DNA of 62,648 nt, the filler included, from Kipferlia bialata (lineage: Eukaryota), in the NCBI GenBank assembly GCA_003568945.1. It is 7 parts of 5 records of this genome, joined end to end, with 100 filler letters (N's around TTAATTAATTAA, not from the genome) between each part and the next. Parts side by side here need not be neighbours in the genome. Positions count along the whole stretch, not along the records: positions 10,120 to 25,588 come from BDIP01000698.1; positions 25,689 to 30,169 come from BDIP01000699.1; positions 30,270 to 35,291 come from BDIP01000699.1; positions 35,392 to 50,849 come from BDIP01000700.1; positions 50,950 to 54,939 come from BDIP01000705.1; 2 more parts are not named here. One strand, given 5' to 3'. A program made the position numbers and the translations under genes. Positions 10,566 through 54,889 of this stretch are shown piece after piece (the stretch's first letter is position 1; every line of letters starts with the position of its first letter). The notes under the pieces are model-generated. The model did not search any database. It saw only the letters and a list, made by a program, of their open reading frames with translations, and was not told the origin of the DNA.

Positions 10566-13142
10566 CTACTGTGGGTTCCTAGTCCGTACACTGGCCATGG
10601 TGTAGGTACCCCCCTTGGCCTTGCCCCTCTGACCTGGTACTAGGACACCGCCTGATATTAGTATAGTCCTGGGTTCGATTCCAAGCGGGTACAAAATGAA
10701 CATCATCTTACCTACTATGGATATCCCTCCACCGACCCTTCTGGTGTATATCCTATGTGGTGCTGATACACACGTGGGTGTGGAGGTATCCCCAGAGGCC
10801 TCCTCTCCCTCTCCCTCTCCCTCTCTCTCTCTCTCATCTTGAGGGGGAGAGAGAGTGCCACTGGGAGAGAGAGTGTGTGTACTGGGTATGAGGCACCAGG
10901 ACTCGATGGCCTGGACAGGGACACTGAGGGTAAGTACGGTATATATATATAATAATATATATACTGTGCAACTAAGGTGTATATATATATATATATATAC
11001 ATATATGCACCAGGACTCGATGGCTTGGACAGGGACACTGGGGGTAAGTACGTATATAATATATCCTATATAACTTATATAGGCTATATAAGTATACTAT
11101 ATCCAGGGACACTGAGGTAAGATTCTATCAAGAGACTGATACATTACGTGTATGTGTATCATATAGACACTACTGCAATTGATGTCGTCAGTTCCTATTC
11201 TTCTGAGTGTGTACCACCTTGTCCCAGAAGAAGTTTAAAATCCAATATACATATAAAATGTTTAAGAATATGTAGAATATATAGAACATACGATTGGTAG
11301 TACCTGTTCACATTTGTCACCATCTTGTCTCTGAACAGATTGAGCACCCTCTCTCTCCCTCTATCATACGCCATACATGTATATATACTGTTATACCTAT
11401 TCTGACTTGTCACCATCTTGTCTCTGAACAGGTTCAGCACTCTCTCGTTCAGATGGGTCGGGACATAGCAGGGGGCCTGGGGTTGAAGGTATATTGACTA
11501 TATATATATATATATATTTATGGTATATACTATTTTGCAGTGTATATATATAGGGCATCTTTCACCTGTAAGAACTCCTCCACCAGAAATACTTAGTATA
11601 TAAAGTATATATAGTGTACATATACTATATATATGTATATATATATCACCTGTAAGAACTCCTCTACGAGGTTATTATATATATGTAAATATATATCACC
11701 TGCAAGAACTCCTCCACCAGGTTACTGGACTGTGCACCTAGGGCCGCCCTGAGACTGCCACCTGGATATTAAGGGTGTAGCAGGAGAGAAGTATTAATTA
11801 AGGTGTAGAGAGGGGACAATATATATAGTACTTGTAGATGGAATGTGTATCAGAAAAGGGACAGGATATCACTCTAGCTATGTAGTATGGGAGAGAAACC
11901 GGTACCTAGTACAAGGTCCCTCTCTATCCTCTCGCACCCAGCCACGCACTGGAGGCATAGAGAGACAGTATCCCTAGCATAAGGAAGATTGATAGTAGCA
12001 CAATAGACTGAAGTAGCGATAAACATCCTTCTCTCACTGCTGTCGAACAACGTATGCTATTATATATGTGAAAATCATGAGAGTATCTTGATAGTACACT
12101 GAGTACTCACTTTGGCACATCTGCCCCCTGGTACAGAGTGGGTGTCTCAACAATGGCTGCAGCAAGGCGGTCGAGAAGCTGAGGAGTGAGAATGATGACT
12201 CAAAACTACACGAGGTCAAAGATAGAGGTATATATACTAAACGAGTATCAGTGATGAGCGTAGTGGTACCTTGTCCCCTGCCCTGACTGCTATTCTGGCC
12301 AGTCGGCGCCTGGTGTTATACAATAAGTGTCTACATGCATTGTATACTTCTACGATTGTCTGCGAATACATATAATACCTAGGGTCTGTCTGGACTGTCT
12401 GTCTGAACCCTTCCAGTCCAGATACCTACATGTATACATACTATATGAGAATCAATATATCACCTATCAATATGCATATATATACCCATACCTTGGGTCT
12501 GTCTGTACAATCTGTCTGAACCCCTCCAGTCCAGACACCAGCAGCATGGCCAGGAAGGCAGAGAGGCTCAGCTCGTCCTCGAACCAACGCACAGCCTCGT
12601 CTCCCTATGGTGAGGGGTAGAGTAGAACCATATTCACTATATCTTTGATATACAATTAGACTACATATCTACAACAACGTATGTATATATATAGATAGAG
12701 AAGCTCGACTTATCCTCGAACCAACGGATAGCCTCATCTCCCTACGGTGAGATATAGAAGTATAAAAGAAAAGAAATGTATATATACTATGCACATATAT
12801 GCGTACGAATAATTACATCTCACAACAGTAATGAACAGCGCATATGAATGTATGTATTATAGTTACCTCTCCCTCTGCCTGGAACAGTGGCATAAAGTGT
12901 ACAGTAATACCCAAATATATGTATAAAAATACATCGATACATCTATATATCCATCAATACATCGTATGTATACCTCTGCCTCTGCCTGGAACAGTGGCTC
13001 CTGGGTGCCAATATATACGATTATGATAGCCAGATATATATATATATATATATATATATGGATACTGTTTCATACCTCTGCCTCTGCCTGGAACAGTGGC
13101 TCCTGGGTGCTGATGGGCTGGGGCTCAGCTCTGGGATAAGTG

Positions 13143-13177
<35 letters not shown>

Positions 13178-16100
13178 GCATAGATTCATAATATGGGGCT
13201 GATGGGCTGGGGCTCAGCTCTGGGATAAGTGTAAGAAGAACAATTCAACAGACGCAAACACACATACACACATATATATATACAAATATATCTACATATT
13301 CCCGAGATGTGGTGCTGATAGGATGGGGCTCAGCTCTAATGGTGAGGTAACACTATCAATCCGGGACCAGGAACTGCATATATGACATATGTAGACACTT
13401 CAACACATACCTCTCCCATGTTAACTGCCATGTGTTCATGCCACCGTGGGGGTCAGGCTCAGTCATCCTGGGGTCAGATATATAGAGACGATATACATAG
13501 AAAACAGTATATAACAGTATATATATAGTAGCCAGTAGTTTAGAATATATAGTATGTGAATGCGTCCATGGGGGTCTGGCTCAGTCATCCTGGGGGTCAG
13601 AGATCTGACCTATATATGTATGTATACAATATGTCATGTGTTACAATGTATATTATGTGTCATACAACTATTAAGTCACAATTGTAACTCTTAGCAGATA
13701 TTTATCACATCATTTGGACCGAATCGCGATATTGGGATATAAGTGTAAGTGTTCACGCTACACAAGTAAGGATAGTAATGACACTTTCGTACCTTGAGGA
13801 CAGGACTCCGTTACGAGGTGTCACCCTGGCCAGCTGGCCCTGAGAGTGAGATTAATACACTGTCCATTCACGTTTGTATATAGTATAGTAGTGAGAGGAA
13901 GGAGCCAAAGACAATTCGTGGGTAAAGTGGGAGAGTGAAAATGCACTAAAGGGCTAGAGCCAAATACATATTTATGTGTTTAGTGTATATGCGCTAGATG
14001 CGTTGCATACCCTAGTGAGTCCAGTGCTAATAGGTATCTCTGGCACATTGAGCACAGGGGGAGCCAGTGTATACTATATACATATAGAGTATACATCCAG
14101 TATATACATAGTATATATACTAACTCTCGTTAACCCTGTACTGATAGGTATCTCTGGCATATTGAGCACAGGTGCAGCAAGGCCATAATATACTATACTA
14201 TATATACTTTATACTATATACTATATAAAAGTGTATACCCGCGTTAACCCTGTACTGATAGGTATCTCTGGCACATTTAGCACAGGGGCAGCAAGGCCAT
14301 AATATACTATACAATATATACTCTATACTATATACTATATACATAGTACATACCCTTGTCAGTCCTGTGCTTATGGGTATCTCTGGCACATTGAGCACAG
14401 GTGCAGCAAGGGGCACAATGTAGTCAGCGGGGGAGTACCATCTGGGAATGAGTGTGTACACAAATCTATATATACGTATACATATATCATTGTAAGATAC
14501 TTCATTCATTGTGCTATTATAAGAATATGAAGAAAACTAATGTATGCACCAAAATAGAACACTACATGTGGTATTGAGCTAACCAAAGGTGGTATGTGGT
14601 CAGCTAGGCTACTTGTTCATACATATATCCTCGTGACAGTTGAAGTACAGTAGTATCTGCCGCAATTACAATAACACATACGAATATATAGAGTGACAAT
14701 AGCCATTACCTTACAAAGTCTATCAGCTTCGCCCGGGGGTTCGCAGCCTGAGGTTAGATTCTCTCGTACAGACTCATTCCAGATTCGCATTCGTTGTCGT
14801 ATCTGATACATACCCAATAATGCAAAAATAGTATGTTGAGAGAACTATAGCAACGTAATCCATACAACTCGATCTACTCATCTTCACGGTATCTCTGTAC
14901 CTTGAATGCCGACATGTCACTCTGCAACTGCCTGCCAAAATGGGTGTGCAGCCTAGGTGTCAAAATGTACACAACATTTACATACATATTCATACATGCA
15001 TAGGATCACAGAACGACGTGATGTTACACTGCTAAAGCGGGTATGTAACCTGGGGTTATAGAGGTAAGAAACAGCGACGGAGGGATAGAGAGTATTACCA
15101 GCATCCTAGTACCTTGCGTCCTGCAAGTCAAGCAGGTGATTCTCCCCAAGGCTACTCTCGCTCTCTGCCTCTCTACCCACACCTTGGTACTCATCTACCC
15201 CCTCTATACCATCTCCACCCTCTATCCCTGTCGTTGTATCTGAGTAGTCTCTGGGGTCTAGTGATGCATAGGGAGAGGCCATGGACGAGGGTACACTCTC
15301 CATATCTCGAGGATCAATGGAGGCGTAGGGGGAGGCCAGAGAGGATGAAATTCTTTCAGCCTCTCCAGTGGGGGCCATACTGGTACCAGTGACCTAAGAT
15401 AAGCCATATGATAAGAATAAGTCTTATTATGCTATCTAGCACAGGTAACAACATACTATGTGAGAGAGAGAGAGAGAGAGGGGACAAGTACCTCAGTCTT
15501 GCTCCTTCCTATCCCCACTCCCCCCTCTGGCCTCAGTGTCTCCCAGGGTACCACCCCACACGACTCCCTGGCACCTGGAGACACCACACTGTCCCCTACA
15601 CTCCTACCACCCCTACTGCGCATGCTCTCCCCTTTGGCGGACCAGCTTCTGATGCTGCTCTCTCTCTCTCTCTCTCCCTTGCTGGTACTGCCGTGCCTAC
15701 TTGCCCTGTCTCTCTGTGAATCCACTAGGTTCTGGATCTCTCTGATCCTGGGGGTGAGTGTCAACACTATGATATGTATACAAATATATGCTCTAACTGA
15801 GCATTAATATCTTTTCAATCTGTACCCTTATACTCACTTCAGCAGGGATGACTCGACTTGGTCCTCGGTGGTGTTGGGTGCTGTGAAGCAGTACGGCACA
15901 CATATGGGCTCATTACAATCCACACACAGCAAGGGTAGTACCATCCTGACACCCCTGGGCTGTCTCACAACCACACTATCTCTTTCCCTGTCCCTCTCAG
16001 GTGTCTGCAGTGGGTGGTTATTCACGTACTCACCCCCACCGACACTGGGGGAGAGTATAGAGTGCAGCGAGTAGTCCTCACTGCTCCGTGTAGCTGGTAT

Positions 16101-18038
16101 CTCGAACCGCGTAGTATGGACAGCAGGGCTAGCGGCAGTGGAAACGGCTGGAGAGGCCGCGTAGGCCCCCAAGCTCCCACTCATTCCCTCTATGCTCTCT
16201 AAGGGGCAGGGTGTAGGGACACCAGGGGAGAGAGTAGCGGCGCTATAGGGGGAGAGAGAGGCTCCGTTGTAGGAGGAGTCTGGGGATACACTCTGTCCAT
16301 AAACTAGGTCGGTCATGGATATGCCACCTCCTCTACCCATGGTTGATAGTTCTCTCTCCCTCTCTCGCTGTCTCTCTCTCTCCCTCTCCTCTCCGTACCG
16401 CTCTGCAGCACTCTCTCTGGCTATGCGCTCTCTCTCCTCCTTGCCTCTCTCAGCCGTGAAGAAAGTGTCTGGGGTTAAGGGTGTAGGAAGAGAGAGAGAG
16501 AGAGTGAAGACCGTGTCTGGGGTTAAGGGTGGAGAGAGAGAGAGAGAGACAGTGAGTGAAGAACGAGTCTGGGTATATGCGTGGAGAGAGAGAGAGAGAG
16601 ACGAAGAGGGAGAGAGAGTACCTGTGTATTGCTCTACGGGCATGACCAGGTCCGCACTCTCACTGGACTCACTCTGCTCCAGGATGTCGGACAGCACAGA
16701 GTTGGAGGCTGGTATGAGGATAGGTAAGTACGGGGTAAGGATAACACAGAGGGTAAGCTATAATGTGTACTCTATTAATATTAACTCACTCTGCTCCAGG
16801 ATATCAGAGAGGACACAGAAGCTTTGGTTACGGTCTAATAGGAGAAGACCGAGTATCTTCAACGACGTTACCTGTAGCCCTGCTGCCGACACTCTCCCTC
16901 CTAAACGAGGACGCACTGCTACGTCTGATGGTAAGTGCAGATGCATACCACATACTATATACTCATCTGTGCTCACTCGACCACAGTATGTACTCTAACA
17001 CTGTCTATGTATAAGTAGCAGTCTCACACTCATTAATGATACATACTGTATACTCATATGTGTTATCGTGTATTTCTATACCTTGTTACTCTAGCACTCT
17101 CCGTGTGGTCTGGCACCGGTAGGGAGTGTGCCTCATACAGGGAAAGAGACCCTCTTCTATACACAGACACATCCCTGTTGTTAAGATATTATCTCATAAG
17201 GTATAGTAGGAACAGTGGACATCTAATAGTATCTGATGGAGTGACAGACTGCCCCTTCTATACACAGACACATCCCTGGAATCATCTATGGAATCAATCT
17301 TTCAATCAATTAGGAAATTACGTCATATACACAGACACGTCCCTGTTGTTAAGAGAAAACTAGGAAGTACAAGACTAATAGTCCACATCGCCTCTGTTGC
17401 TACCAGCACTCATTTCTAAAGCACACATATTCTGTGAGTCCCGTGACCTGTCCCATCTGGACTCACTATACACACATATGTATANNNNNNNNNNNNNNNN
17501 NNNNNNNNNNNNNNNNNNNNNNNNNNNNNNNNNNNNNNNNNNNNNNNNNNNNNNNNNNNNNNNNATGTATATGTATATATATACCTGTTCTGGGAGTCCC
17601 GTGACCTGTCCCATCTGGATGCCTCACTTCTGCGTCTGCCCCGGGTGACATCCTTCTGTCTGGTTCTGTAGGGTGAGAAATTCGTACTGATATATAAGTA
17701 TATGTATGCATACTTTGTAGGAAGAGTGATTGAGATCTGGTCCCATAGGGTGAGAAACGGAACAATATACATATATATGCATATGTATGTATGCATACTC
17801 TGTAGGAAGACTGAGAGAGAGAGAGAAACTTCTCTCTGGTCCTGAAGGGTGAGATGAAAGTACACTAATCATACACTACTATGGATATATAGAGAAGTAT
17901 ATACGGGTTATGGGTGTATACATGCGTGTATACGTACCTCCCACTCCACGGACATGGGAAGTGTCATACTGATATAAATACGCATATATATGTGTATTAC
18001 TATGTATATATGCGTATATATATGTATATTTATATATG

Positions 18039-18069
<31 letters not shown>

Positions 18070-18559
18070 ATTACTATGTACCTACCACTCCACGGGCACG
18101 GCTCACCGGCCTCCAGCATTGCCTGAGTGTTAGTATACACAAACAGAAATTTATACCTATAAGTACATGTATATGCGAAGTATAGGGTGAGGTAAGGCCT
18201 CAAGTAGGGGCCTAGAAGCTGTGATGTCTCTTTGTATTTGTAACGAGAGTATGAAATTGAATGTATACAAAGGCTCAATACGTCAATATACCATTTACAT
18301 ATGGAGAGTAGAGTAAAGTGGAATATACCTGCACCCCTGGTGGCACACTGGCCATGGGCTGGTCCTTCTTGTTGACTTGACTAGAACCCTGGTATTAGAA
18401 GAATGCGCCTCTAACACAGATGTCTTGACTATATTAGTATGCGTATATGTATACTATTATATATTGTAATATATGCATACCTGAGCCGGTGTCCCCACCA
18501 TGCAGTCTGTGTCGGCAGAGGGGACATAGAGAAGGGCCTGGAGTAAGCAACATATATCG

Positions 18560-18592
<33 letters not shown>

Positions 18593-19469
18593 TACATAGA
18601 GGAGGGCCTGGGGTTACCACAAGCAACACACGAGAGAATGAGAGGGAGAGACACTTCATGAGAGATGTATTCATCATCTGCTTCTCTTTGTCTCTCCCTG
18701 ACTACATTGAACAACAGTGGACTTCTGTTAACAGTATAGTACAATACATACCTGGTTAAGCACCGCCAGCTTCTGGTACAGCAGGTGCTGGTGGGGGCCA
18801 AAGGTAGTGCCTGAGAGGTAAGACATGGAAGAGGTACAATTTGTAGGTATTCTACCCGAAGTAGTGCAAATAGTGAATCCATTACCTATGTATATATGTA
18901 CATATATATGTATATATGGATCCATTACCTATGTATGGAATGAGTCGCCTCTTCTGCCAGTAGAGAGAAATAACAATCCAAGCAAGGATAGAGAGGAAGA
19001 ATGATGATACTTCAGGGTACACTATAGTGCAATGAATCCAGTGCAGCGCCTGGTACCTATATATGGAATGAGTCGCCTCTTCTGCCAGTACGTATGTACA
19101 TATATAGAACTATATATATATAATCAATATAATTATATATGTACATATATAATACCCAGGTCCAAAGGAAGTGCCTATGTATGGAATGAGGCGCCTCTTC
19201 TGCCAGTACAAGTATATGTGAAGTATATATGTAAATATATAGAAACAGAGACGTTACAGAAATGAATCATTATATGGAATGAAAAGAAATGACGTCTGTA
19301 TAGTTGATTGAGACTGTTACCTACGTATGGAATGAGTCGCCTCTTCTGCCAGTACTAGGAAGAATGATAATAATAATAATAATACTTCAGGATACACTAT
19401 AGTGCAATGAATCCAGTGCAGCGCCTAGTACCTATATATGGAATGAGTCGCCTCTTCTGCCAGTACGAC

Positions 19470-19520
<51 letters not shown>

Positions 19521-22500
19521 TACATATATGTGTGTATTACTAGTATTGCAAAGCGTGCATCCACTACCTATGTATGGAATGAGTCGCCTCTTCTGCCAGT
19601 ACTCAGCTATCCTCATGGTGAAGAGAGAGAAGAGACCTGGGGTTAGATGTGAAAGACTCGGCTATCCTCATGGTGAAGAGGGAGAAGAGACCTGGTGTGA
19701 GCATTGGAGACAACAACACTTCTGCTACTGTGAGGCGATTGCACATACCCTTAACCTACTGGCCGGAGTCCCTGACACCCCTTGACCAGTCTGCATACAT
19801 TCAAATGCACATAAATATATACTTACATCTCTCCAGTAGTTATAGGGTAACATTCTAGTATATTGCCTGTTCTCACCTTTTACTTCTGCCGGTCTGAGTC
19901 CCTGACACACCTTGACCAATCTGCATATATATATATATGCACACAATACAAATACTTCATATTATCCGTATGTATATACAGTGTTGCATACCCTTGACTT
20001 CTGCCGGTCTGAGTCCCTGACACCCCTTGACCAGTCTGCACACCAGGCACTGCCTGGGACAGGACTTGAGCCTACAGTCAAGTTGCTTCCAAACATGAAT
20101 ATATGCGTGGATATTACTACATGCATGTATTGATGTATATGAAATATCTCACCTCATGCTCTCCTGTTCTGCCCCCTTCCTGCCCCTCTCCTTCTCCCAG
20201 GCTGGGATGTCACTCTCGGACATGACTGAGGGTGAGAATGGTATAATATATACAACAGATAATGATCAATTCAGTATCTTCGGAAGAACAGTATTCTTAG
20301 AACATCGTCCTCACATACCTGTCTCTATGGCCTGTCTGACATTGGGTGTGATGTCACTATCAATCTATATCCCTAGTCTATTATACATTAGAATACATGA
20401 ACCATATGTATATATATATATATATACACTCAATATACCTGTCTCTATGGCCTGTCTGACATTGGATGTGATGTCACTATCACTCTATATCCTTCGTGTA
20501 TAATACATTAGTATACATGAACTATATTTATATATAAATATCCACTCAATATACCTGTCTCTATGGCCTGTCTGACACTGGGTGTGATGTCACTATCACT
20601 ACATATACTACGTATACACTGGGTGTGAACTACTCCATATATACTCTATACCTGTCTCTATGGCCTGTCTGACATTGGGTGTGATGTCACTATCACCAGG
20701 AGGGGTGTGCATACAGGTCACAATGGTTCGTAACACCTACAATTAGATGTAGTGTAGTATACTAAGTATAGAAAGAGACATAGAAATGCCTCAACAATAC
20801 AATAACACAGATAAGAAATGCATATATATGCCCAGGTGGATACAACAAGTGACATGGTACGCAGAACCTATGGGTGGTGTAGAGAGATATACTCACAAAC
20901 AAGTATATATGTAGACACTGTAGATACTCTTGTGTATATATACCTGTGACACCCTGTACACAGTGGGCTGGGGCACATACTAATGTATAAATATACATAT
21001 ATAACATGTACTATTACTGTACAATATATACAATTACATACAAATACATATATAAATACATATATACATACACATACCTGTGACACCCTGTACACTGTGG
21101 GCTGGGGCACATACCAGATGCGCCAGTCCTGAGATAAGAAAGGTAGAGTCAGAAGATAAGAAAGGAAGGAGAGGAGGTATGACGAGAGTTATTGACGAAG
21201 CAGTCCACATATATATAGGAGATACTTCTGCTGGTACATACCGGCGCCTCATGGACGTTCAGACCCTCCGTAAGGGTGCCTTGAAGTAAGACTGCTGAGA
21301 GAGAGAATGAAAGAGAGAGCGTACCAAATATGGACATCTTCCAGCAGACACTGCATCCAGCCCTTAGAGGTGACTATTGTGGATATTTACACATGTGTGT
21401 ACACTATACAACACACCTGACGGGCACAGTGGGAACACTTTAGTATATATAAACTGATGGAACTGATGGGCACGGTAAGAAGTGTAATATATACATATAA
21501 ATATATATATAATTTACACCTGACGGGCATGGTGGGAATGCCACTGCCAGACAGAGTGATCCAGCTGGAGACACAGAGGCACCCAGGGGGCATAGAGGGG
21601 AGGGTGGCTAGGTATGAGAACACTAACTACTTGGAGACTGACAGACACTACCTATGTGTCTCGAATGGTATATATAGACACAAGCATACATATATACATG
21701 GATACCTGCTGCATTGGGAAAGGTGTCTCAAAGAGCATTGAGCATGCCTCCACAACCCCACCTGTAAGGGCACCAGCCCTGGAGTTAGTATACANNNCAT
21801 GCCTCCACAACCCCACCTGTAAGGGCACCAGCCCTGGAGTTAGTATACATTCACTATACATATATACATATACATTGAGAGAGATAGAAATTGATATATA
21901 GTATACGAATATGTATATATATATATGCACAGAGCATGCCTCCACAACACCCCCAGTCAGGGCACCAGCACTGGAGTTAGTACAGAGTCCATACTCGCAA
22001 TATACATATATGAAACTACCGTCCAATAATCACCCTAGATGCGGCACCTACCTGGGAATGTATACATACCACTAATAATATTAATAGTTCTAATGTATTC
22101 ACATATACAACTTATACCATACCCTAAGTGTGGCATGACCCTGGGTATGTCCCTCCTGACCAAGGGGACAGACAGGGTGGGGTGGGTGTCTATCACCTAG
22201 TGTGAGGAACCAGATATATATACACAAATTTATAGATATACACACAGTTGAGCACTCAACGAGAAAGAGACTCTAAGGGTATTGAGTAGTACTCTGTACC
22301 TTGTGTCTGTAAGATGCCGCGTAGGACTGGCCATAGAGCAGCTGGGTGCCTGGGGGTAGAGCTATACACGTAAACATATGCGTGTGTGTCAATACCGCTA
22401 TAGACAATGTAGAGTAGATGGGGCAATTGCATACACATATACTACACTTATACCTATGAATCTATAGAAATGTGAACATGCAATTTCTAAATACACTACG

Positions 22501-23306
22501 TTACATAAACCTTTGAACTCTACCCCTGCTGGTCCACCACCCCTGCCACAGACCATGAGGTAAATGTATATTGTATAATGCATATATATATACACAATGC
22601 AATATCCTATATATATAGGTATTTGGTATACATACCTTTGAACTCCACCCCTACTGGTCCCCCTCCCCTCCCACAGACTATGAGGGGCAAAGAGAGTGGG
22701 GCAACGACCTGACGTTAGAAAATGAAAAGTGCATGTCGAGTCACACATCTATACATATTGTGAATTACTATACGAGAATCCACCGGAGGGTAGATGTGTA
22801 CCTTCACACTATTGCTGTCTCCAGGTGTACCAGTGACTGATATCCCAGGGCTCTTCACTGGTGTCCCCCACTCCCTCTGCCACCCACCGCCACCTCTCTC
22901 CCTCGCATCAACCTCTCTGCCTGCACCCTCGGCAGACCTGGGAGATTAGGGTATATACATATATATGAATATTAGTATATATATATATATATACACTATA
23001 TATTAATTCACACACACATATATGGGCTTGGGATATCTCTACCTCTACCTGCACCCACAGCAGACCTGGAGGTAAGACACTATATATATGTATAGGGGCT
23101 TGACACACAATACGACTCATGGAGTCCTGTTGAATGTATAAGAAAGGAATCTTACCTCTCCATCAATGTGGCCAGGGACAGTGACTCTGGGTGTGACAGG
23201 GAGTGGCTCAACAACCTATGCAGAGAGACAGCTGCTTCGGAGAGGGCTGGGGTTAGAGAGGGTATATATATTCATACAGTTAGAGAGACAGAGAGAGAGA
23301 GACAGA

Positions 23307-23355
<49 letters not shown>

Positions 23356-23605
23356 TGATCCAACAGTCTGTGCAAGGAGACAGCTGCCTCAGATAGGGCT
23401 GGAGTGAGGACAGAGAGATGTGCGTATTGACTACACTAACTGCCGACAGGGACAGTAAACATTCATACATTACAAACATATACATATATTACCATCTATA
23501 TATATATGATTATCTATAATACATAGAATATCATATTGTATCTATATAACCATTTGTATATACCTGCCAGCAGTGATGGTAGCAGTGCTGACCCTGGCAT
23601 AGTGG

Positions 23606-23643
<38 letters not shown>

Positions 23644-24563
23644 TATATACAATATATAGATCTATAATTATACAATATAATTATACATAGTGATGTTACT
23701 TGTGCATACCTGCCAGCAGTGATGGTAGCAGTGCTGACCCCGGCATAGTGGTTGGTATCTGGGTGTGCGTGTACTCCCATGGAAGGGTGTCAGCCTGTGG
23801 TATAAGAGAGAGAGAGAGAGAGAGAGGCAGGGGGAGAGAGAGAGAGAGAGAGAGAGATAGAGCGTGTACTCCCATGGTAGGGTGTCAGCCTGAGAATTAG
23901 GTAGATGGTGAGAGATATCTAAGAATAATGGTAGGGTGTCAGCCTATGACATCAGTGAGAGAGAGTGAGAGAGAGTGAGAGAGAGAGAGAGAACCAACAC
24001 TCATCACCCGTGTCAGAACGACAGCCAATGACTAAATAATGAGAGAAAGAAGACATATAATAGAAATACTACAGATGGAGATTAGGAATGGAGGGGGGGT
24101 GAAAGTGTGTGTGATATATTCAGAGAGAGATACGTACCGCAGATGGGGAGGGAGCGCCACCGGCTAGCACTCTTGTGTCGGGGACCAATAGAAGTGCGCC
24201 TGGGGTTAATGATCACGGGGGATCTAGTGAGAGTGGAACTGTACCTGTAATGCCCAATAGCAACAGAGGCATGACTGCACCCTATGTCGTATGCAAAAAT
24301 GTAAGTATATACATGTATATGTATATATATATATACTCTACCTGTGATACTTAGCAGTAGCAGTGGCATGACTGCTGGGACTGCACCATCAGACGTATGC
24401 ATATATATATTATTACAGATATATATATACACATATGCATGTATATATACTATATAAACCTGTGATACTTAGCAGTAGCAGTGGCATGACTGCTGGGACT
24501 GCACCCTCCGTGAGTACAGGGGAGTGGGGGAAGCGCATCTGGAGTTAGTTAATAATGTATACA

Positions 24564-24602
<39 letters not shown>

Positions 24603-25400
24603 GTATATATGAAGAGAGAGTGAGAGGGATACCCTCTGTCAGCACAGGGGAGTGGGGGAAGCGCATCTAGAGTTAGATTCAAATAGGAGAGAGGTCTCAA
24701 TTGTTTCGGAACGAGAGAGAGAAGTACAGGGGAGAGGGGGAAGCGCATCTGGAGGGTTACAGTTGGAGAGACATGGAACGGAATATAGGGATCCATACAC
24801 TAATATATATCCCCTGGTCCCTCTCTCTGCCCCTATCTATATGTGTGTATGTGAGTATATTGTACTCACCTGTCCACTTGACAGTGCTGCTGTAGGCGAC
24901 AGTGGGTACTGGACGACAGAGAGAGATGGGGGCACAATCACTCTCTCCCCCTCACTATCTAGATCATGTCCCTCATGTGCTGCAGACACAGAGGATATGG
25001 AGTGACATATACCCAACCCCCCGTGGGAGAGAGAGGAGTCATCCTCAGAGACTGACGGCAGCACATGCACAGAGTCTCTCTCTCCCTCCTCACCCTCCTC
25101 CTCTCTCTCTACATCTACGGATACAAGAGTGTCAGCAAGTGACCCCCCATCTCCCTCCCCCTCTCCCTCCCTATAGAATGCATCGTCAGTAGATGATGAT
25201 ATCTCACCGGCCTCCTGCCGCTGTCTCTCTCTCTCCCTCTCCCTATACAAATCCTGACGTAAGCAAAGGGAATGACCATCAAATAGTATATCTTGCGCCA
25301 TCATATGTCAGAAAACAGACAATGGATAGTACCTGGTATGTGCTCTGCAATGAACACCGCCTCACATCAGTCCCAGGGGGGAGGGCGGCAGTCTTGCCAG
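10566..25400 (-). CDS. RAB3GAP1: Rab3 GTPase-activating protein catalytic subunit (multi-exon, 5' partial)
   Basis: Spliced motifs MRIAEYWQKRRLIP, HLLYQKLAVLNQ, EPICVP...TTEDQVE, LQSDMSAFK-AANPRAKLIDFVR-WYSPADY, GVLSSRM...NTWQLTWERAEPQPISTQEPLF and PHRIY match the Rab3GAP1 signature SDMxxFKAANP...DFVRWYSPxD. Stop TAG at 10566-10568. Confidence 0.85.
14008..14441 (-). repeat. Functional exon (14354-14441) plus three downstream exon-3'/donor echoes
   Basis: The segment coding LAAPVLNVPEIPISTGLTR, followed by GT, recurs at about 14239-14295, 14125-14181 and 14011-14067. Confidence 0.9.
18882..19693 (-). repeat. Array of exon-end echoes around the exon SLFTMRIAEYWQKRRLIPYIG
   Basis: tacctatgtatggaatgagtcgcctcttctgccagta (or close variants) occurs at about 18926, 19053, 19173, 19318, 19428 and 19565 (real exon). 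An acceptor-side copy lies at about 19656-19693. Confidence 0.9.
20317..20737 (-). repeat. Three donor-side echoes of the exon ending DSDITPNVRQAIET
   Basis: tacctgtctctatggcctgtctgacattgggtgtgatgtcactatca occurs at about 20317, 20436, 20552 and 20649 (real exon). Confidence 0.9.
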
Positions 25401-25588
25401 CTAGTATTAGTATACCTTAGTATGCCTTGAATGACATATATCTATAATACAATATACATGTAGTATATACATTCAGTCCCAGTGGGGAGGGCAGCAGTCT
25501 TACCGGCTGGGATAAGTACCTTGTATCTTGTATATATGACAACCAGTCTTACCCCCCCCCCCCCCCCCCCCCCCCACACACCCACCCC

Positions 25589-26037: not shown

Positions 26038-26122
26038 CTGCCAGTTGTAGAGGTTGATCCGGGAGTAAGGAGAGTAGCCGCACTTTTGCATGCAGTCCAT
26101 AGCCACCCAGTCGCCATCTGGG

Positions 26123-44315: not shown

Positions 44316-45160
44316 TTATCTCAGGAGATTATATTGATACATTTGAGGCTCTCTCTCTCCCTAGCCCTCGGCCATGTATGTAGTAGTAATATGGTTATGT
44401 AAATGGTGTGTATATGCGGAAGGCAGACAGTGAGGCAATATATATAGTAGATACTAAGAGCGTATGGAAGAGAGAGAAATGCAGAAAGACAGAGGGAGTC
44501 AAGGAGAGACATGGAGAGAGAGAGAGAGAGAGAGAGATGGGGTGTCCGGATGCAATGATAAGGGATCATATGAGGCCACATACATTTTGAGCAGGGACAG
44601 AGACTTCTCCTCACAAAGCCGCAGCTCTGCTTGGTGGCGCAAGAGTTGCCGGATACTGGGCATTCCCAAGTTCGAGTTCAATGACCCAAGGGTGGCCAAA
44701 TATTGGGCAAAAGAAGATTCGAAAGAGCTGGGAGCCACGTACTTTTCGAAATTCAAAAACTTTCCGGAAAATCCTGTTTCCGCCTCTGGACCTGAAAACA
44801 CCTCTAATTCTTGAAGCAGTATCCTCGAAGGGGTCATGCTAATGAGGGAGCGACTCTGAAGGCAGCGACTCGGGACGCTGCACCCTATCTTATCCGCTTT
44901 TACGACTATTTGGCCGGAAAGCTTCGGACTTTCCCTGGACCCTTTAATCCCACAAGTACGGGCTCCCAGACCTATTCAAATAGGTCTGCCCTCTCCACTG
45001 TCTTTAGAATTGAACATCCCACCCATCGTTCATTGGTTATCCCTCTATTATCACATTTTACTTCTTGCCCTTCTTCTTGCCCTGCCCTGCTATTATTCAT
45101 CGAGTATAGAACCTTAAATTCAACACATTTTGCAATAATAATCTATTCTCTGTTACTCAG

Positions 45161-47371
45161 TTACTTCTTGCCCTTCTTCTTGCCCTGGCCTGCCTTGAAG
45201 AACATGATGTCTCCGTCCTGAACGACGTAGTTCCTGCCCTCCATGGTGACCTGTGATCGGTGTTAGTATCATATATATGTATATATTATTACTGATACTC
45301 AGTATCAGTATGAGCGTTAGATCTAGACTAGACCTAATTAACACTACGATCAGTATATGTATCATGTGTGTAGATGATACTGACAAGTGACCTTGCCAGC
45401 TGCATCTCCCCCATACTTTTGCGTCAGTATCAGAATTATTATCTCATTATCACATGGTATTTCATATTCTGACCTTGCCGGCAGCCTTTGCCTCTGCCTC
45501 TCCACCATACTCAACTAGGTCATCGTATCTGGTCACCTCAGCACAGATGAAGTTGTCCCTGGGGTGTGAGAGGGAGAGAGACAGAGAGAGAGCCACTGGC
45601 TGGCAAATAGTCAGTTGCCCCTTGTATGAGTATTATTCTTGAGGAACAGAGAGGGAGAGAGAGAGGGAGATAGAGAGAGAGAGATGTACCTGAAGTCTGA
45701 GTGGATGACGCCAGCGGCATCGGGTGCCTTGCATCCCTCTCTGATGGTCAGTGTCAGTATCAGTATCAGTATACTGATACCTGATGGTCCAGCACCTGAC
45801 CTCCCTAACACTACATCCACCCTCCCACACTCTCTCTCTATACTAATACATATATACATATATATACATATATCCATACACACATACCTGATGGTCCAGC
45901 ACCTGACCTCCCTCACACCAACGGTGAAGAAGTGGATAAGGTGCAGGGCGCGGTAACCTTAGGTAAGGCGCACAAATATATAAGTAATGAGAGGTACATA
46001 CATGATATATGTATACAAATATAATTCTATACTATAAACACACATGCTGAAAGAAATAGTATATAATGGGATGATATATATTCACAACATACCTGTGGCA
46101 ATGATCTTCTTGAGGGCGGTTCCCTTGCCCTCTGCCTCCAGAGCAGCCTGCTCCTCGGGGGTCATGTAGTGCAGCTCCTGCTCGTACTAGGGTGAGAGAC
46201 ATAGAGACAGACAGGCAGAGAGAGAGAGAGAGAGAGATACAATGAGTGTCCTCGGGGGTCTTGTAGTGCAGCTCCTGCTCGTACTAGAGTGAGAGAGGAG
46301 AAGAGAAGAAGAAAGAGAGAGAGACTAGCATACTAGACTTATCGGGGGTCATGTAGTGCAGCTCCTGCTCGTACTGATGTAAGTGATATAGAGACTAATA
46401 GACAGATGGAGAGAGTAAGGTACTATTAGTGTCCTCGGGGGTCATGTAGTGCAGCTCCTGCTCGTACTGGGGTGAGTGGTGTATATAAACCGATAGAAAG
46501 AGATATATGGTGGGAGAGAGAGAGAGTAGTGCAGCTCCTGCTCGTACTGGGGTGAGTGATAAGCCTATCAGATATAAGAGAATGGCAGAAAGAGAGAGAG
46601 AGAGGCAGAGAAGGTACCTATAGACTGAATGTGATTAAGAGAGAAAGAGACAGAGAGATAGATGCATATATACTACCTGAGCACTGAATGGGATGATGGG
46701 ATCATGTGTATTGAGACAGTACGAGACAGATAGAGAGAGAGTGCAAGCCAGTACCTGTGCGCTGAATGGGATGATGGGGTCGGTCTTGGAGGACTCCTTG
46801 ATCCAGGCTACGACCTAGATTGTGAGGAGAAGTGTGATTACACGATGTCTCAGTTCTATATATATAGTATATATACCTTCTTGAGCCACTTGTTCTTCTT
46901 CCTGAGGTAGTCCTTGGCAGACATCTCTCTCTCTCTCTCTCTCTCTAATATATATATATGTACACACAATGCACAAATACCTTCTTGAGCCACTTGTTCT
47001 TCTTCCTCAGGTAGTCCTTGGCAGACATGTTGATGAGGTAGATGACAGGCTTGGAGGTCAGGAGGAAGAGGTCCCTGAGGTGAAATGTATATATATACAC
47101 ACAGACACATTAACACATATGTATTCATTAATGAGAGAGACACTTAGATGACAGGCTTGGAGGTCAGGAGGAAGAGGCCCCTAGTATACGATATAGGTGG
47201 TAAATATAAATATAACAATACAGAGCATATGAGAGATATAGTTGTAATAGTCAGATAGCAGGTATAGAGGTCAGGAGGAAGAGGTCCCTGAAGTGAGAAT
47301 TGTTTTATACATGAAGAAGAAAGATAAAGAGAGAGAGAGTATACCTGATGATGAGTATCTCAGAACTTGGT

Positions 47372-47406
<35 letters not shown>

Positions 47407-48751
47407 AAGAGAAAGAGACATACATGTATAGAGAGAGAATGGTACCTGATGATGGGGATCTCAGCAGACTTCCAGTCGACGTTACGGGCATCGACGTTGT
47501 TCCTGGGGTAAATGGAGACCAAACACACAATCTTATGTATATATGTGTACGGTGTATGTATATAATATACTTACTTCAGGTTCTCGAGGCACTTGTGGAG
47601 GACAGGCAGCATATATATGTGTATGTGTGTATATATAGTATCAGTATCAGTGTCAAGTACTGTAGATATACACTTACTTCAGGTTCTCCAGGCACTTGTG
47701 CAGGACTGGGAGCATGTCCTTGGCATCCTTGTTGGAGGACATGCCCTGGGGGGAGAATACAAGTGAACAATGTGAATAGAATTCTAAAGACTTTGTATAT
47801 GGTAATGCTGAGTACAGTATAGCCGGTGTACCTTGTTGATTGCGTTCTGGCACTCTGCAATCTTCCTCTCAAGGGTGGCAATGTCCTTGAAGACAAGCTC
47901 ATCGTGGATGATGGAGAGGTCCCTGAGAGTAAGTATATATAAACACACACACCTATATATATGTATATATATAGAGAGATAGAGAGAGAGAGTGGCAATG
48001 TCCTTAAACACAAGCTCATCGTGGATGATGGAGAGATCCCTAAGAGTAAGGGATGTCATATATGAAGAGATAGAGAGAGACAGGGTGGCAATGTCCTTGA
48101 ACACAAGCTCATCGTGGATGATGCTAAGGTCCCTGGGGTTAATAGATGTATATAGGGAGAGAGAGAGGGGGAGAGAGAGAGAGAGAGAGAGGCAATGTCC
48201 TTGAACACAAGCTCATCGTGGATGATGGAGAGATCTCTGAGAGTAAGAATATTGATATATATATATACACACACACACACATATATATATATATAGAGAG
48301 AGAGAAGGGGCAATGTCCTTGAAAACACGCTCATCGTGGATGATGGAGAGATCCCTGAGGGTAAGGCTTGTATAGGAGAGGGAAGGGGGGGGAGAGACAG
48401 AGAAAGACGATATAACTGGGTCACGAGCTCTCCTTCAACGCATGTGTCTCAACACACGAGATGTATATATAGACACTAAACATATTGGATAGGCACACAC
48501 ACACATATATGTAAATATATATCATTATTACATACCTGACAGGGTCCACCTCTCCCTCGACGTGTGTCACCATGTCGTCATCAAAGAGACGCACAAGGTG
48601 GTAGATGCCGTCAACGGCCCTGGAAGTCAGTGACGACAGAGAATACACAATAATATATGTACTGAGAGAGAGAGAGAGAAGGTGATAGATGCCGGCCATG
48701 GGAGTCGGTGAGAGCAATACATAGTTGACAAGGAAATATTAACAAATACAT

Positions 48752-48785
<34 letters not shown>

Positions 48786-49908
48786 GAGTAATGGTGTTGA
48801 ATGTACATATGCACAATATAGATACACACCTGATGTTGGAGAGGAAGGCATTGCCAAGTCCCTTTCCCTCGTGAGCTCCACGCACAAGTCTGGGGTGAGG
48901 AAGGGGGGGGGGGGGTTAGGGAGAGATTGAATTATTGGGAGGGAGAGTGTGTGTGGGAATGGCTTATATAGTAGCCCAAGTACACCCACCCTTCGATGTC
49001 GATACCCCCGTGTACTTAAATATATGCTAGAGAGACAGAGTATGATAGAGTGTCAGTACATATATAGACCCACCCTGCGATGTCGATGACCTCCAGGTGG
49101 GCAACAGATACACAAATATATAGAGATTGAGGTAGAGATGATGATATAGTAAGAGTGCAGATATATACCCACCCTGCGATGTCGATGACCTCGAGGTGGG
49201 CAGGCACCTCAGAGGCAGGTCTGATGTTCTTGCGGAGCCACTCGAACCTCTCATCAGGCACAGCAACACGGGCCTGGAGTAAGAGAGGTACTGAGTTGTA
49301 ATATAGAGACAGGGGGAGAGAGAGAAAGTGAAGAGCATTGGGCTCCGCAATTTATATACATAGATCGTGAGAGAGAGAAATACTGGAAGTTACATACGTC
49401 AGCTAGCATTGAGTAAACTAGTTAGGAGAGGAAGGGATCATGTACATTGGTATACCAACGGGGGGATATGATACGAAGCTCATTAAGGTAGAGGTACACT
49501 AATATACATATAAGAGAGAGAGAGACACACACACACATAAAAGCTTGGTACCTTGTTGGGGTCGATGGTGTATGGGATAATGGGAATATACATACAAGAC
49601 GCACTATATATGTTCACCTTGTTTGGGTCGATTGTGCAGAATGGGAAGTTCTCAGATGGCACCTCCTGGTTGCTCATCATGTTGAACATCAGGGACTTGC
49701 CGACATTGGGGAGGCCAACGATACCTGGGGTGAGCTGGGAGTCACCCCAGCAGCATATTAGCGGAGAGTGTACATAAAGATATGGTATGATAACTCGCAA
49801 TATTGAGTAATTCTTCCTCCACTCACCGCAAGAGAGGGTGTTCTTGGAGCGTCCCAGCAGCTGGATCTCAGTTGTTGGCTCGTCGTCACCCTTGGTCTTC
49901 TTTGCCAT
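45161..49908 (-). CDS. OLA1: Obg-like ATPase 1 / YchF, complete multi-exon gene
   Basis: Motifs [98 protein letters not shown] and [16 protein letters not shown]. Stop TAA at 45161-45163. Confidence 0.95.
46155..46558 (-). repeat. Four acceptor-side echoes of the OLA1 exon starting [11 protein letters not shown]
   Basis: gtagtgcagctcctgctcgtact occurs in the real exon (about 46166) and again at about 46263, 46353, 46446 and 46526. Confidence 0.9.
47832..48356 (-). repeat. OLA1 exon (47832-47922) plus four upstream acceptor-side echoes
   Basis: The segment coding [15 protein letters not shown], each time preceded by its own YAG, recurs at about 47992, 48082, 48191 and 48309. Confidence 0.9.
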
Positions 49909-51580: not shown

Positions 51581-54387
51581 CTATAACACCAGAGCTATGT
51601 CAGGTCCTAGGAAACGGGGATCGATATCCACCATCAACATTGCCTCTCTTGCCACTAGCAACAGAGTATAGGGGTTCATCATCACACTCCTACAGTCCTT
51701 TAGCTCCTTGTACAGAGCAACACTCTCGGGTAGGAGGGCAAGTCGGACCTTGTCAAGGGTTACATTGTCTCTTAGTACCGGTTGGTGTACGGTCCTATTT
51801 GTGACTCCCTTAATACTTAGCCGTGCCCTGCTTGCTCTCAGATGACGCTCGCCATAAAGAGGTACGGCATAGAGACTCTCACTAGTGCTGGCAGTTGAAG
51901 TAGTCTCTTCCCACCACTCCCTGTTGCTGTACACTACATGGTACCAGATGGTGTACAGGTGGTGGCAGGACCCACTAGTGACACCTACGCATTAGAGTAT
52001 ATATACATATATATATATACTTATATATATGGTAGCACACAGTGTACATGTGGGGGCAGGCCTCACTAGTGACACCTAGGCATAAGAGTATATCTATGAA
52101 TATATGTGTTAATAGTACGTAATAATAATTCATACTATGACGAAGTCAGACAGTCTGACCTGCAGTGACAGCACAGGGTGGTAAGAGAATACAACGGTCA
52201 CATAGAGTATATAATCAATACAGTAAGATAATAGTACCGTAAGCAAGAAACTATAAATACAATCTGACCTGTAGTGACAGCACAGGGTGGTCTTTCAGCG
52301 CACTGGGTCCACACCCTAGTCTCCAGAGACCACTCCCACGTCAGCTGAGAGATTAGTAATTGACACACACACAGAGAGAGGGAGGGCGGGGAGAGAGAGA
52401 GGGACTTAGTCTCCAGAGACCACTCCCACGTCAACTAGTGATAAGTAGCTGTATAATTGATGATTAATTCACATATGTACTATATATATATAGATAACCA
52501 GTGTGAGAGAGAGAGGTTTCTAGTCTCCAGAGACCACTCCCACGTAATCTGGGAGGTTAAAACACATGGTTACTCCTCTGTAACCACCATTGCACTCTTG
52601 ATCGCAAAGCGAAATACCACGTATCTAAAAAGATGTACATGTATCTACGTGTACAATATATGGAATATATAAGTATACACATATATACATCTGTGTCCTC
52701 GTCTGTGACCACCAGTGTGTCACCCACAGCAAAGACATGTACTATTTACCAATGTATACACTATCTATATATATGTATATATATACTGTATATGGTACCT
52801 CCGTGTCCTCGTCTGTGACCACCAGTGTGTCATCAACAGCAAAGACAAGTATGTACTTGTTCGGTGTTGGACCCATCCCTTCTCCAGACGATAAAGGGTC
52901 CAGAGGAGCAATAGATTTCTTCCCTTCCCCACAAGACGGGACATCCTCCCATTGTGCTGTGTCAATGGAGTATACAGACATGACCCATACGTGCTCGTAC
53001 CTCCCGTCAGTATCGGTGTCAGTATCAGTGTCACTGTCAGGCTCAGGTTTGGCTACTAGACGGACCCCCCCCATATGCTACCACCACCTCCCCTACCCTG
53101 GTAAGGGTCATCTTAACGACACCTTGGGGGTTGGGAGGGCCTGGTGTTAGACATATATATATAGAGAGAGAGAGAGAATAGGAAAGAGACCAGATAGGGG
53201 AAGTAGCAAAAGTGCAAGGGAGACCAAGAGAGAGAGAAGAGCAGAGAGAGACACCGCGAGGGATAGATAGGTAATCAGAGAGATAGGAGTAAGGAAACCT
53301 GCGATGTCCTCTGTCCGTATGGTATAATCATCAATAATATAATATACTATATACTATAACAATACTATATATATGTGTGTCCCCACATATATGTCTATAT
53401 ATACCTGCGATGTCCTCTGTCCCTATGGTATAGTCATCAATAATATAATATACTATATATACTGCTGTGGTGCGGTATATATAACATATATATAACAACA
53501 TTTAATATACATATGTCCCCACATATATGAATGTCTATATATACCTGCGATGTCCTCTGTCCCAATGGTATCGTCATCATTGAGAGTGAGTATACACCAC
53601 TTCTGTTCATGATCACCATCCCTTGACAGATGGTATGTCAGCATGGCAGAGTTATGACCTGCATTGAGAATTATACACATATATACATATATACTAAATA
53701 CTATACATATATAGTGTCATCTTCTGATAGATGGTATGTCAGCATGGCAGAGTTATGACCTAATGTGAGAATAACATTAGAAGTGTACATCATGATAGTA
53801 ATGATAATGATTTCTATGTCTATATATAGTCACCTCCTCTTAGATGGTATGTCAGCATGGCAGTGTTATGACCTACGACGTGAGTGGTATTTATTGTTAT
53901 ATGTGTATACACATATCCATACATATATACATATGTGTAGCAGTGTTATGGCCAATATATGCGATGACAGTACAACCACTACTCTAATAGTTTAGTCTAG
54001 ACACTTCTATATGATGATGGCATGTGGAATAGAGGTCGTAGACATCACCATTAACAATCATAGAGCACACGCTCCTATGAAAAACAGCATCCCATTCGAC
54101 ATATCTATATGACTAAATGTATATATGAATATATATACAGTATTGTTACACCATTACTCGATACTCATATATATATATATGAATTAATGTATATATGAAT
54201 ATATATACAGTATTGTTACACCAATATTTGATACCCACCTATGTTGACCACAGATATGGCATCAGCACTCCGTTCCATATACCTTCATGGAATAATAATG
54301 AATGTTTCGAACTATATCAATACTATTACCCACCTATGTTGACCACAGATATGGCATCAGCACTATGTTCATGACCTGAACCTATGC
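51581..54387 (-). CDS. Divergent kelch-like protein, multi-exon, 5' partial
   Basis: Exons VGEVVVAYGG, VYSIDTAQW and TWEWSLETRVWTQC. The C-terminus MMNPYTLLLV...MVDIDP resembles MLNPTTMLV...VVELDP of the gene at 41480. Confidence 0.65.
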
Positions 54388-54889
54388 CTGGGGGTCAATA
54401 TATATAATGTATCATCTATATATATTCAATACTGATAATCATGACAGTATCAGTATCTCTAAGCATACTTATACTGATAACTGAAGTCTATGCCCTGGGG
54501 GTAAGTAATTAGTAATGTTCACCAAGTGAGGGTGGAGTATGTGCTGTAAATACTTCCTCTTCTGTCAAAAGAATTATCACTGGGGCTAGTACTTGGTGTG
54601 ACATAATAGTATATATCAATAGGTACCAGAAGGGTGAAGCGTACTTGTCATGGGTTATAATGACACGATACTCATATAAGCTTATACACTTGTAACAAAT
54701 TCTATAATTATGAACATGTGCATACCAATATATAATTACATATACCTGGGAGCTTAGTACACATAGTGTACCAAGGAACACCGTCCATCTCTCTCTCTCT
54801 CTCTCTTGATCTGTCTCTCTCTGTATACACCCTCTCTCTTACGTGTATCCCACTGCTGTGTCAGTTAGTGGGATGGAGGTGTGTGATGT

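What the first reader, a model, noticed from the sequence alone, without database searches (positions are those of the whole stretch)
10895..54500. Window-wide 'exon echoes': truncated, polarised exon copies in introns that carry a protein-coding signature
Seen in sequence: introns of RAB3GAP1, the FG-GAP, Smr, tRNase Z, membrane, OLA1 and kelch genes hold dozens of 20-60 nt copies of the adjacent exon's end; the ARM gene beyond 55000 does too. Polarity was consistent in the clusters I traced. Acceptor-plus-5' copies lie upstream of the real exon, and 3'-plus-donor copies lie downstream. Each copy stops mid-exon and usually has its own diverged intron flank. Lacking a second splice site, they should be dead, yet differences are mostly synonymous (e.g. 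11647 CTG/CTC, GTG/GTA, TTG/TTA; 16783 GTG/GTC, CTG/CTC, TCC/TCT, GAC/GAT). Established knowledge: a duplicate dead from birth should gain mostly non-synonymous changes. Inference, three models: (a) each echo is a formerly functional exon half displaced by one-ended repair from a highly divergent homologous allele, which would renew exons and inflate introns; (b) echoes are live donors for gene conversion or programmed deletion between direct repeats; (c) non-canonical RNA-level use.
Basis: partly seen in the sequence, partly recalled or inferred. Interest (0 to 1): 0.92.

Follow-up and report, generated by a model that had tools for sequence, protein, structure and literature searches.

The report
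Retired exon ends stacked in introns
In this stretch of a free-living protist's genome about a third of exon ends have short copies stacked in the neighbouring intron, a layout already known as 'mirage' repeats in lancelets, but here the copies differ mostly by silent changes and keep their splice signals, so they are likely once-working exon ends left behind by recombination with very different versions of the same gene.

Summary
Confirmed. 110 partial exon copies (median 35 nt, unit about 105 nt) sit at 73 of 218 exon ends in genes whose proteins match Kipferlia bialata; 0 at 57 exons of 1-9,945. DNA contigs bridge two of them. Polarity is perfect, but any tandem duplication over one boundary gives it. 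The layout is the known 'mirage' repeat (lancelets, human F7), which this scan has met before in other genomes. What is new is the signature: dN/dS 0.17 (95% CI 0.12-0.26); 166 of 270 changes silent, above the 44-47% ceiling for copies dead from birth; GT/AG kept in 99 of 106; intron flanks only 61% alike (56% by chance). Copies also occur at a start and a stop codon. Break points are shared within arrays, so independent one-ended repair per copy is rejected. Best model: a rare seed duplication, then misaligned recombination with divergent homologues inside the exon-like tract, which retires working exon ends into introns. The donor alleles were not seen; the OLA1 paralogue is excluded. No support for RNA-level use or programmed deletion, though neither was properly testable.

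The parts
10566..25506 (-). RAB3GAP1 gene (42-exon model) with 43 echoes in 28 arrays; pN/pS 0.13
   Evidence: identical to P0123 (PF13890)
18929..19636 (-). Donor-type array: exon 19568-19636 plus five 34-36 nt echoes with one shared break point; units 19057 and 19432 share a 95% identical flank but end at different places
14011..14441 (-). Donor-type array: exon 14354-14441 plus three 57-58 nt echoes, 27 changes of which 24 silent
20319..20736 (-). Donor-type array: exon 20652-20736 plus three 44-45 nt echoes
16784..16834 (-).
25749..27095 (-). FG-GAP gene 5' part with 4 echoes; pN/pS 0.86 (no coding signature)
29033..30051 (-). Smr-domain gene; one donor echo (29319-29348) and a tandem whole-intron duplication at 29537-29660
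35120..35145 (-). Echo of the start codon and first 26 coding bases, upstream of the gene, no splice site involved
   Evidence: P0122 starts at the parent ATG
36385..41111 (+). Membrane-protein gene region, partial models, 7 echoes analysed
45058..45090 (-). Echo of the last 33 coding bases of OLA1 including the stop codon, downstream of the gene
45161..49908 (-). OLA1/YchF gene (15 exons, 397 aa) with 19 echoes in 12 arrays; pN/pS 0.12
46093..46546 (-). Acceptor-type array: exon 46093-46186 plus four echoes (35, 32, 35, 21 nt), spacers 58-62 nt
47253..47287 (-). Echo bridged on both sides by one DNA contig of run X1 with no differences
   Evidence: record 7
47832..48354 (-). Acceptor-type array: exon 47832-47922 plus four echoes (51, 51, 46, 46 nt), 13 of 14 changes silent
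51688..54387 (-).
55196..59319 (+).
49..9942 (.). Three echo-free control genes (57 exons, introns median 78 nt)

Best explanation
The echoes are tandem copies of exon edges that likely were once working exon ends, displaced into the intron by recombination with highly divergent versions of the same gene (probably alleles), and now slowly decaying. Step 1 (inferred): a rare duplication of about 105 nt covers one boundary between conserved coding DNA and fast-changing non-coding DNA; it survives because it carries only one splice site and leaves the full exon intact, which fixes the polarity (shown by geometry). Step 2 (inferred): homologues can pair only in exon-like DNA, since their introns are nearly unalignable; a break in the exon end repaired on a homologue that carries an echo can re-anneal out of register, adding one unit next to the exon, inheriting the old break point, installing the homologue's exon end and splice site as the working one and retiring the former one. 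Step 3 (shown as a pattern): retired ends differ from the exon by a large silent component (dS 0.24) and a small decay component (dN 0.042; GT/AG changes 0.038 per site), the decay rising away from the exon. The result is intron inflation and a record of several past alleles in one chromosome.
For: dS 0.244, dN 0.042, ratio 0.17 (CI 0.12-0.26 over 73 arrays; 0.13 in the three genes checked against public proteins). 166 of 270 unique changes silent against 76 +/- 7 (base-matched) or 82 +/- 7 (trinucleotide-matched); above the dead-from-birth ceiling of 0.44-0.47, p 5e-9 to 9e-5. Frame-free test: 75 of 164 mismatch spacings are multiples of 3, p 6.5e-4; 2 indels in 3,800 nt; 2 stops against 9 expected. 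Changes private to one echo are still 31 of 69 silent (p 0.002-0.008). GT kept in 54 of 56 and AG in 45 of 50 although not used for detection; neutral decay with the same number of flank differences would keep 26 and 14. Branch-like CTNAY motif in 36 of 49 echo acceptors (5 of 49 further upstream), differing in sequence from the parent's in 18 of 33 pairs. Flanks 0.61-0.62 identical against 0.56 background and uncorrelated with exon-part identity; only 4 of 159 unit pairs reach 0.8; spacers within arrays are homologous (0.58 vs 0.49, p 2e-8). Shared break points (29 of 53 vs 7.4). Nearest echoes have fewer amino-acid changes than farthest (17/849 vs 29/759 nt, p 0.02) with silent changes flat (p 0.41). 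Echoes at a start and a stop codon. A second OLA1 copy in run X1 shows the same contrast, exons about 90% alike with intron flanks that stop aligning within about 12 nt. Fornicates lack NHEJ and Rad51A and have two Dmc1 paralogues (PMC8516963 section 8).
Against: No donor allele was seen: the model needs about 0.16-0.20 silent divergence between homologues (my arithmetic from dS, dN), which is extreme and unmeasured. The one divergent copy found (paralogue P0002, 89.6% identical) is not the donor: echoes carry the parent's residue at 10 of 10 diagnostic echo-codons. Amino-acid changes do not rise towards the break end (0.033, 0.030, 0.028, 0.036 per nt), as random crossovers would predict, though alignment trimming can hide this. 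The narrow unit size (IQR 95-118 nt) and the echo-free 10 kb are unexplained. Two genes show near-neutral ratios. One window only; arrays are not independent samples of the genome; run X1 may be the window's own source.
Confidence: 0.55

Rival explanations
1. Standby copies: arrays are old, flanks have drifted apart in place, and the exon part and splice site of each echo are kept by second-order selection because cis pop-out or conversion often makes an echo the working exon end.
For: Explains shared break points, homologous but deeply diverged spacers, kept splice signals and lower dN in the nearest echo without needing extreme allelic diversity; single-strand annealing is reported as available to metamonads (PMC8516963).
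Against: Cis exchange copies the neighbour's flank, yet only 3 of 106 parent-echo pairs reach 0.8 flank identity and none exceeds 0.87; silent divergence does not rise with distance; silent changes lean GC to AT in echoes (79 vs 41), as in decay; GT/AG loss equals dN.
Confidence: 0.2
2. Ordinary mirages, dead from birth: cis tandem duplicates whose silent bias comes only from the working exon's branch, with flanks scrambled by microsatellite slippage.
For: Polarity and layout match the known mirage; at three OLA1 sites the echo shares the paralogue's codon while the exon differs, so part of the silent signal lies on the exon's branch; two genes are near neutral.
Against: Silent share 0.58-0.61 exceeds the 0.44-0.47 ceiling; private changes are still silent-rich; splice signals kept far above decay expectation and reworded; where units are recent copies the flank is not hypermutable (19057/19432 flank 0.95; 14135/14249 spacers 0.89 with 5 exon-part differences).
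Confidence: 0.1
3. RNA-level use: echoes act as alternative, recursive or non-canonically spliced exons, or as decoys for splicing factors.
For: Splice signals are nearly as strong as the parents' (PWM 4.6 vs 5.5 donors, 3.7 vs 5.7 acceptors) and frames are nearly free of indels and stops.
Against: Second splice site near the break in 3 of 56 and 10 of 50, chance 7.6% and 21%; echo and unit lengths show no multiple-of-3 preference; echoes at a start and a stop codon; three public proteins use only parent exons; in lancelets and human F7 such sites are reported silent.
Confidence: 0.07
4. Each echo is an independent one-ended repair from a homologue, with a strong break hotspot in each exon, or donors are dispersed near-identical gene copies rather than alleles.
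For: 48 of 72 arrays have one echo and show the same signature (ratio 0.19, CI 0.11-0.29); units 19057 and 19432 share a flank but end at different points; three loci encode an identical tRNase Z-like protein.
Against: No hotspot motif is visible at the breaks; OLA1 and RAB3GAP1 have no protein-identical second copy in the collection yet carry the strongest signature.
Confidence: 0.06
5. Assembly artefact: haplotypes or strains chained together.
For: Short-read-type scaffold with many gaps; two exact duplicates sit at gap edges.
Against: Run X1 holds 0.89 of sampled 31-mers; separate contigs at even depth (450-515) with no differences bridge echo 47253-47287 and hold echo 47575 together with its parent exon; mid-exon junctions exist in no single allele.
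Confidence: 0.02

Closest known systems
Amphioxus 'mirages' (Adh3, globins BflGb6/BflGb9, troponin C, PGBD5); passages read in PMC3087553 and PMC3902484
   Same: Tandem duplication of an exon-intron boundary into the intron, at 5' or 3' boundaries, many units keeping AG/GT, units of 60-160 bp, unequal crossing-over proposed.
   Different: Described BflGb6 units are 81-100% identical with concerted evolution, in a few genes; here a third of exon ends are affected, flanks are near saturation, exon parts carry dN/dS 0.17 and reworded splice signals, and start/stop codon ends are copied too. The word 'synonymous' does not occur in PMC3087553's main text.
Human boundary-spanning minisatellites (F7 IVS7 37 bp; CBS, LMNB2 100 bp, PDGF 81 bp); passages read in PMC1557585
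   Same: Repeated donor sites downstream of the true one; the most upstream site is used, which would explain why donor echoes are tolerated.
   Different: F7 pseudo-sites are identical in sequence; no coding signature described in the passages seen; isolated loci.
Tandem mutually exclusive exons and internal gene duplications (recalled; the PNAS 2009 paper was not held)
   Same: Local duplication of exon sequence; low dN/dS between copies.
   Different: Those copies have both splice sites and are used; echoes have one.
One-sided invasion and misaligned synthesis-dependent annealing in double-strand-break repair (recalled; one search gave one unrelated listing)
   Same: A break repaired on a homologue at one end can leave a tandem duplication made of two alleles.
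   Different: Independent one-sided events would give scattered break points; here they are shared within arrays.

Membership tests
mirage minisatellite | Tandem duplication spanning an exon-intron boundary, lying in the adjacent intron | tested here: met
mirage minisatellite | Both 5' and 3' boundaries duplicated; many units keep AG/GT | tested here: met
   54/56 GT, 45/50 AG
mirage minisatellite | Minisatellite-like homogeneous units (81-100% identity, concerted evolution) | tested here: not met
   exon parts 92% but flanks 61%; 4 of 159 pairs reach 0.8 flank identity
mirage minisatellite | Normal splicing unaffected | tested here: inconclusive
   public proteins use parent exons only; no RNA record of this gene copy was laid
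mirage minisatellite | Length instability between haplotypes or cells | not testable with these tools
   no second haplotype or long reads
mutually exclusive tandem exons | Both splice sites on each copy | tested here: not met
   second site at chance level
independent one-sided-invasion duplications | Independent break point for each copy | tested here: not met
   29 of 53 within-array pairs within 2 nt, permutation mean 7.4, max 19
programmed deletion between direct repeats (ciliate pointer-like) | Joined, echo-free form present in DNA | tested here: inconclusive
   no such joint listed over 1.5 kb, but contigs drop rare forms and rows at repeats were skipped
paralogue-templated conversion | Echo carries the paralogue's diagnostic residues | tested here: not met
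   0 of 10 echo-codons match P0002

The most novel reading that the evidence does not exclude
A genome-wide exon-renewal ratchet: in a protist that repairs breaks without NHEJ or Rad51, recombination among hyperdiverse alleles is confined to exons, keeps swapping in new exon ends, and files the old working ends in order in the introns, where they may still serve as back-ups. One genome would then hold a time-ordered sample of many extinct alleles, show cryptic sex and record-level diversity in a free-living fornicate, and explain much of its intron length.
Probability: 0.35. Interest if true: 0.85.

Novelty: new variant of a known kind. Interest (0 to 1): 0.62.

Why it matters
Mirage repeats were an oddity of a few animal genes with no clear origin. 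Here they make up roughly 10 of 23 kb of intron DNA in the affected genes (the two sums cover slightly different gene sets) and carry a measurable signature that separates origins. If the allele model holds, introns grow by recombination between divergent homologues, sex and allelic diversity can be read from a single genome, and the splicing machinery of a short-intron protist must ignore thousands of strong decoy sites, which makes splice-site choice directly testable. Practically, echoes mislead gene prediction and read mapping (my first gene finder used them as exons).

Tried and rejected
No whole genome was held, so nothing here is genome-wide. No RNA holder on record was listed. The one contig laid from X2 (RNA by guess) is spliced but belongs to the paralogue: it shares 7 listed variants with X1's second copy and the H191Q change of P0002; its 40-nt piece fell on echo 46877 only because the paralogue shares that echo's silent variant, so it is not echo use. 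That no X2 contig matched the window's OLA1 copy, and that X1 listed no second allele of it, proves nothing (contigs drop variants). X1 records 3, 4 and 6 reach only 30 nt past an echo junction and were not counted as bridges. Read evidence covers only 46085-47600. Two metagenome scans for relatives found nothing (120 and 196 pattern matches, none confirmed). Pfam on single exons was mostly blank. A gradient of decay along echoes was sought and not found. A reading-frame preference of unit lengths was not found. An apparent intron-less echo at 58830-58870 was set aside: it is equally read as an ordinary acceptor flank. My tRNase Z-like model ran three exons too far; they hold no echoes. Literature searches found no description of such repeats in Kipferlia and no mirage study with dN/dS; in PMC5874029 'tandem', 'duplicat' and 'allel' occur 0 times in the main text (part 1 of 6 and passages read). 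Supplements were not read, and the original Adh3 mirage paper was not seen.
Full report
Setting. The window is a gapped scaffold of an intron-rich eukaryote. Spliced models built from the sequence alone match public proteins named Kipferlia bialata: OLA1 397/397, RAB3GAP1 1473/1473 aligned residues with two short in-frame gaps, tRNase Z-like 243/243. Frames used below therefore do not depend on the echoes. No whole genome was held.

Observation. An annotation-free scan gave 169 local direct-repeat pairs, mostly 85-140 nt apart, none starting before 10,893. Aligning 169 exons to their adjacent non-exon DNA gave 114 hits: 54 3' ends downstream, 50 5' ends upstream, 10 internal, none on the wrong side; 4 hits in 1,670 control pairs. 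Four were dropped (two gap-edge duplicates, two weak unanchored hits). The 110 left cover 3,800 nt, median 35 nt, at 73 of 218 exon ends, against 0 at 57 control exons in 1-9,945. 53 of 102 introns in the affected genes carry echoes. Units (echo plus spacer) have median 107 nt, IQR 95-118; 48 of 72 anchored arrays have one echo, the largest five.

Not an assembly artefact, as far as tested. Run X1 holds 0.89 of the sampled words of 45000-50700. Over 46085-47600 its contigs match at depth 450-515 with no differences; record 7 bridges echo 47253-47287 and record 8 holds echo 47575 with its parent exon. X1 may be the window's own source and these are contigs, not long reads.

Polarity is automatic. 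Duplicating [exon end + intron start] head to tail leaves the whole exon first and the partial copy downstream; the mirror holds for acceptors. Duplications holding both splice sites or shifting the frame would be purged (inference). The layout is the 'mirage' of lancelets (PMC3087553, passages; PMC3902484, one passage) and the F7-type minisatellite (PMC1557585, passages); earlier notes of this scan gave me both leads. Echoes of the tRNase Z-like start codon (35120) and the OLA1 stop codon (45058) show that the rule is 'edge of conserved DNA', not 'splice site'.

The coding signature is real and exceeds what dead copies give. dS 0.244, dN 0.042, ratio 0.17, bootstrap over 73 arrays 0.12-0.26; 0.13 in the three verified genes, 0.38 in the others, near neutral in the FG-GAP and 51.7-54.4 kb genes. 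166 of 270 unique changes are silent (157 at whole-codon level) against 76 or 82 expected. A copy dead from birth beside a perfectly conserved exon can reach at most 0.44-0.47 silent; the observed share is higher (p 5e-9 to 9e-5). Changes private to one echo are 31 of 69 silent (p 0.002-0.008). A frame-free test agrees (75 of 164 spacings divisible by 3, p 6.5e-4).

Splice signals were kept while flanks diverged. GT 54 of 56, AG 45 of 50; random decay with the same number of differences would keep 26 of 56 and 14 of 49. GT/AG bases changed at 8 of 212 sites, 0.038, the same as dN. A branch-like motif stands in 36 of 49 echo acceptors and is reworded relative to the parent in 18 of 33. Flanks are 0.61-0.62 identical to the parent's, against 0.56 for unrelated introns, whatever the exon-part identity. 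Flanks are not simply hypermutable: recent unit pairs keep 0.89-0.95. So each echo with its flank looks like a separately evolved working boundary plus about 2-4% later decay; solving dS and dN for that gives 0.16-0.20 silent divergence before retirement (my arithmetic).

How arrays grew. Break points are shared within arrays (29 of 53 pairs within 2 nt; permutation mean 7.4, max 19) and spacers are homologous (0.58 vs 0.49). This rejects one independent one-ended repair per copy and points to misaligned homologous exchange inside the exon-like tract. Exchange in cis would copy the parent's flank, which is almost never seen (3 of 106 pairs at 0.8 or more), so the partner was likely a divergent homologue. 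Nearest echoes have fewer amino-acid changes than farthest ones (p 0.02) with silent changes flat, as expected if fresh units enter next to the exon. Fornicates lack NHEJ and Rad51A and keep two Dmc1 paralogues (PMC8516963, section 8 and passages), a fitting but untested background.

Who is the donor? Not seen. X1 holds a second OLA1 copy (depth 367, same exon ends where seen, other intron flanks), which is paralogue P0002. It shows that in this genome exons 90% alike go with unalignable introns, but echoes carry the parent's residue at 10 of 10 diagnostic echo-codons, so it is not the donor. Three loci encode an identical tRNase Z-like protein, a possible donor pool for that gene only. Alleles in past outcrossing are the remaining candidate (inference).

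Function. Second splice sites at the break are at chance level (3 of 56, 10 of 50; chance 7.6%, 21%) and lengths ignore the reading frame. Nothing supports use as exons; RNA of this gene copy was not available. Weak selection on echoes as standby ends cannot be excluded.

Verdict. A new variant of the mirage kind: works like a mirage, fails the homogeneity feature, and carries an allele-like signature that my ten literature searches did not find described. Interest 0.62.

Noticed in passing
window 29537-29660: A whole ~57-nt intron of the Smr gene is duplicated in tandem with a 5-nt chimeric piece between the copies; both copies keep GT and AG. The open frame requires skipping the 5-nt piece; a possible intron-gain intermediate.
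   Followed up: partly
window 1-9945 versus 10120-56400: Sharp regional contrast: echo-free genes have higher intron GC (0.45-0.48) than most echo-rich genes (0.33-0.42; FG-GAP 0.47 is an exception); echoes thin out along the ARM gene and none was seen in the 60.5-62.6 kb gene.
   Followed up: partly
window 45161-49908 and P0002: The organism has two OLA1 paralogues 89.6% identical; the other copy's intron between exons matching 46755-46814 and 46093-46186 is about 146 nt by my reading of one 376-nt contig, against 568 nt here.
   Followed up: partly
window 31145-35074, P0121, P0122: Three annotated loci encode an identical tRNase Z-like protein over 221-244 residues.
   Followed up: partly
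window ~53060: A run of eight G on the minus strand breaks the frame of the 51.7-54.4 kb gene; homopolymer error or a decaying gene, which would fit its near-neutral echoes.
   Followed up: no
window 15113-15393 and 43040-43150: Internal near-repeats inside or near coding sequence (a 19-codon in-frame repeat in a RAB3GAP1 exon), perhaps the same duplication process surviving in frame.
   Followed up: no
window 54101-54235: The one clear purely intronic tandem duplicate (64 nt, 91%, 70 nt apart).
   Followed up: no
window 10120-10155: A fragment at a gap edge that resembles a tRNA 5' part on the minus strand (recalled pattern, not scanned).
   Followed up: no
all long gaps, e.g. 10020-10119: Gaps of fixed size with a palindromic 12-nt spacer in the middle; true contiguity of the segments is unknown.
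   Followed up: no
window 41483-42397: A 305-codon open stretch with Pfam kelch matches (E 1e-6), the tail of a minus-strand gene not modelled here; one diverged donor-side echo near 44020 was seen by eye only.
   Followed up: no
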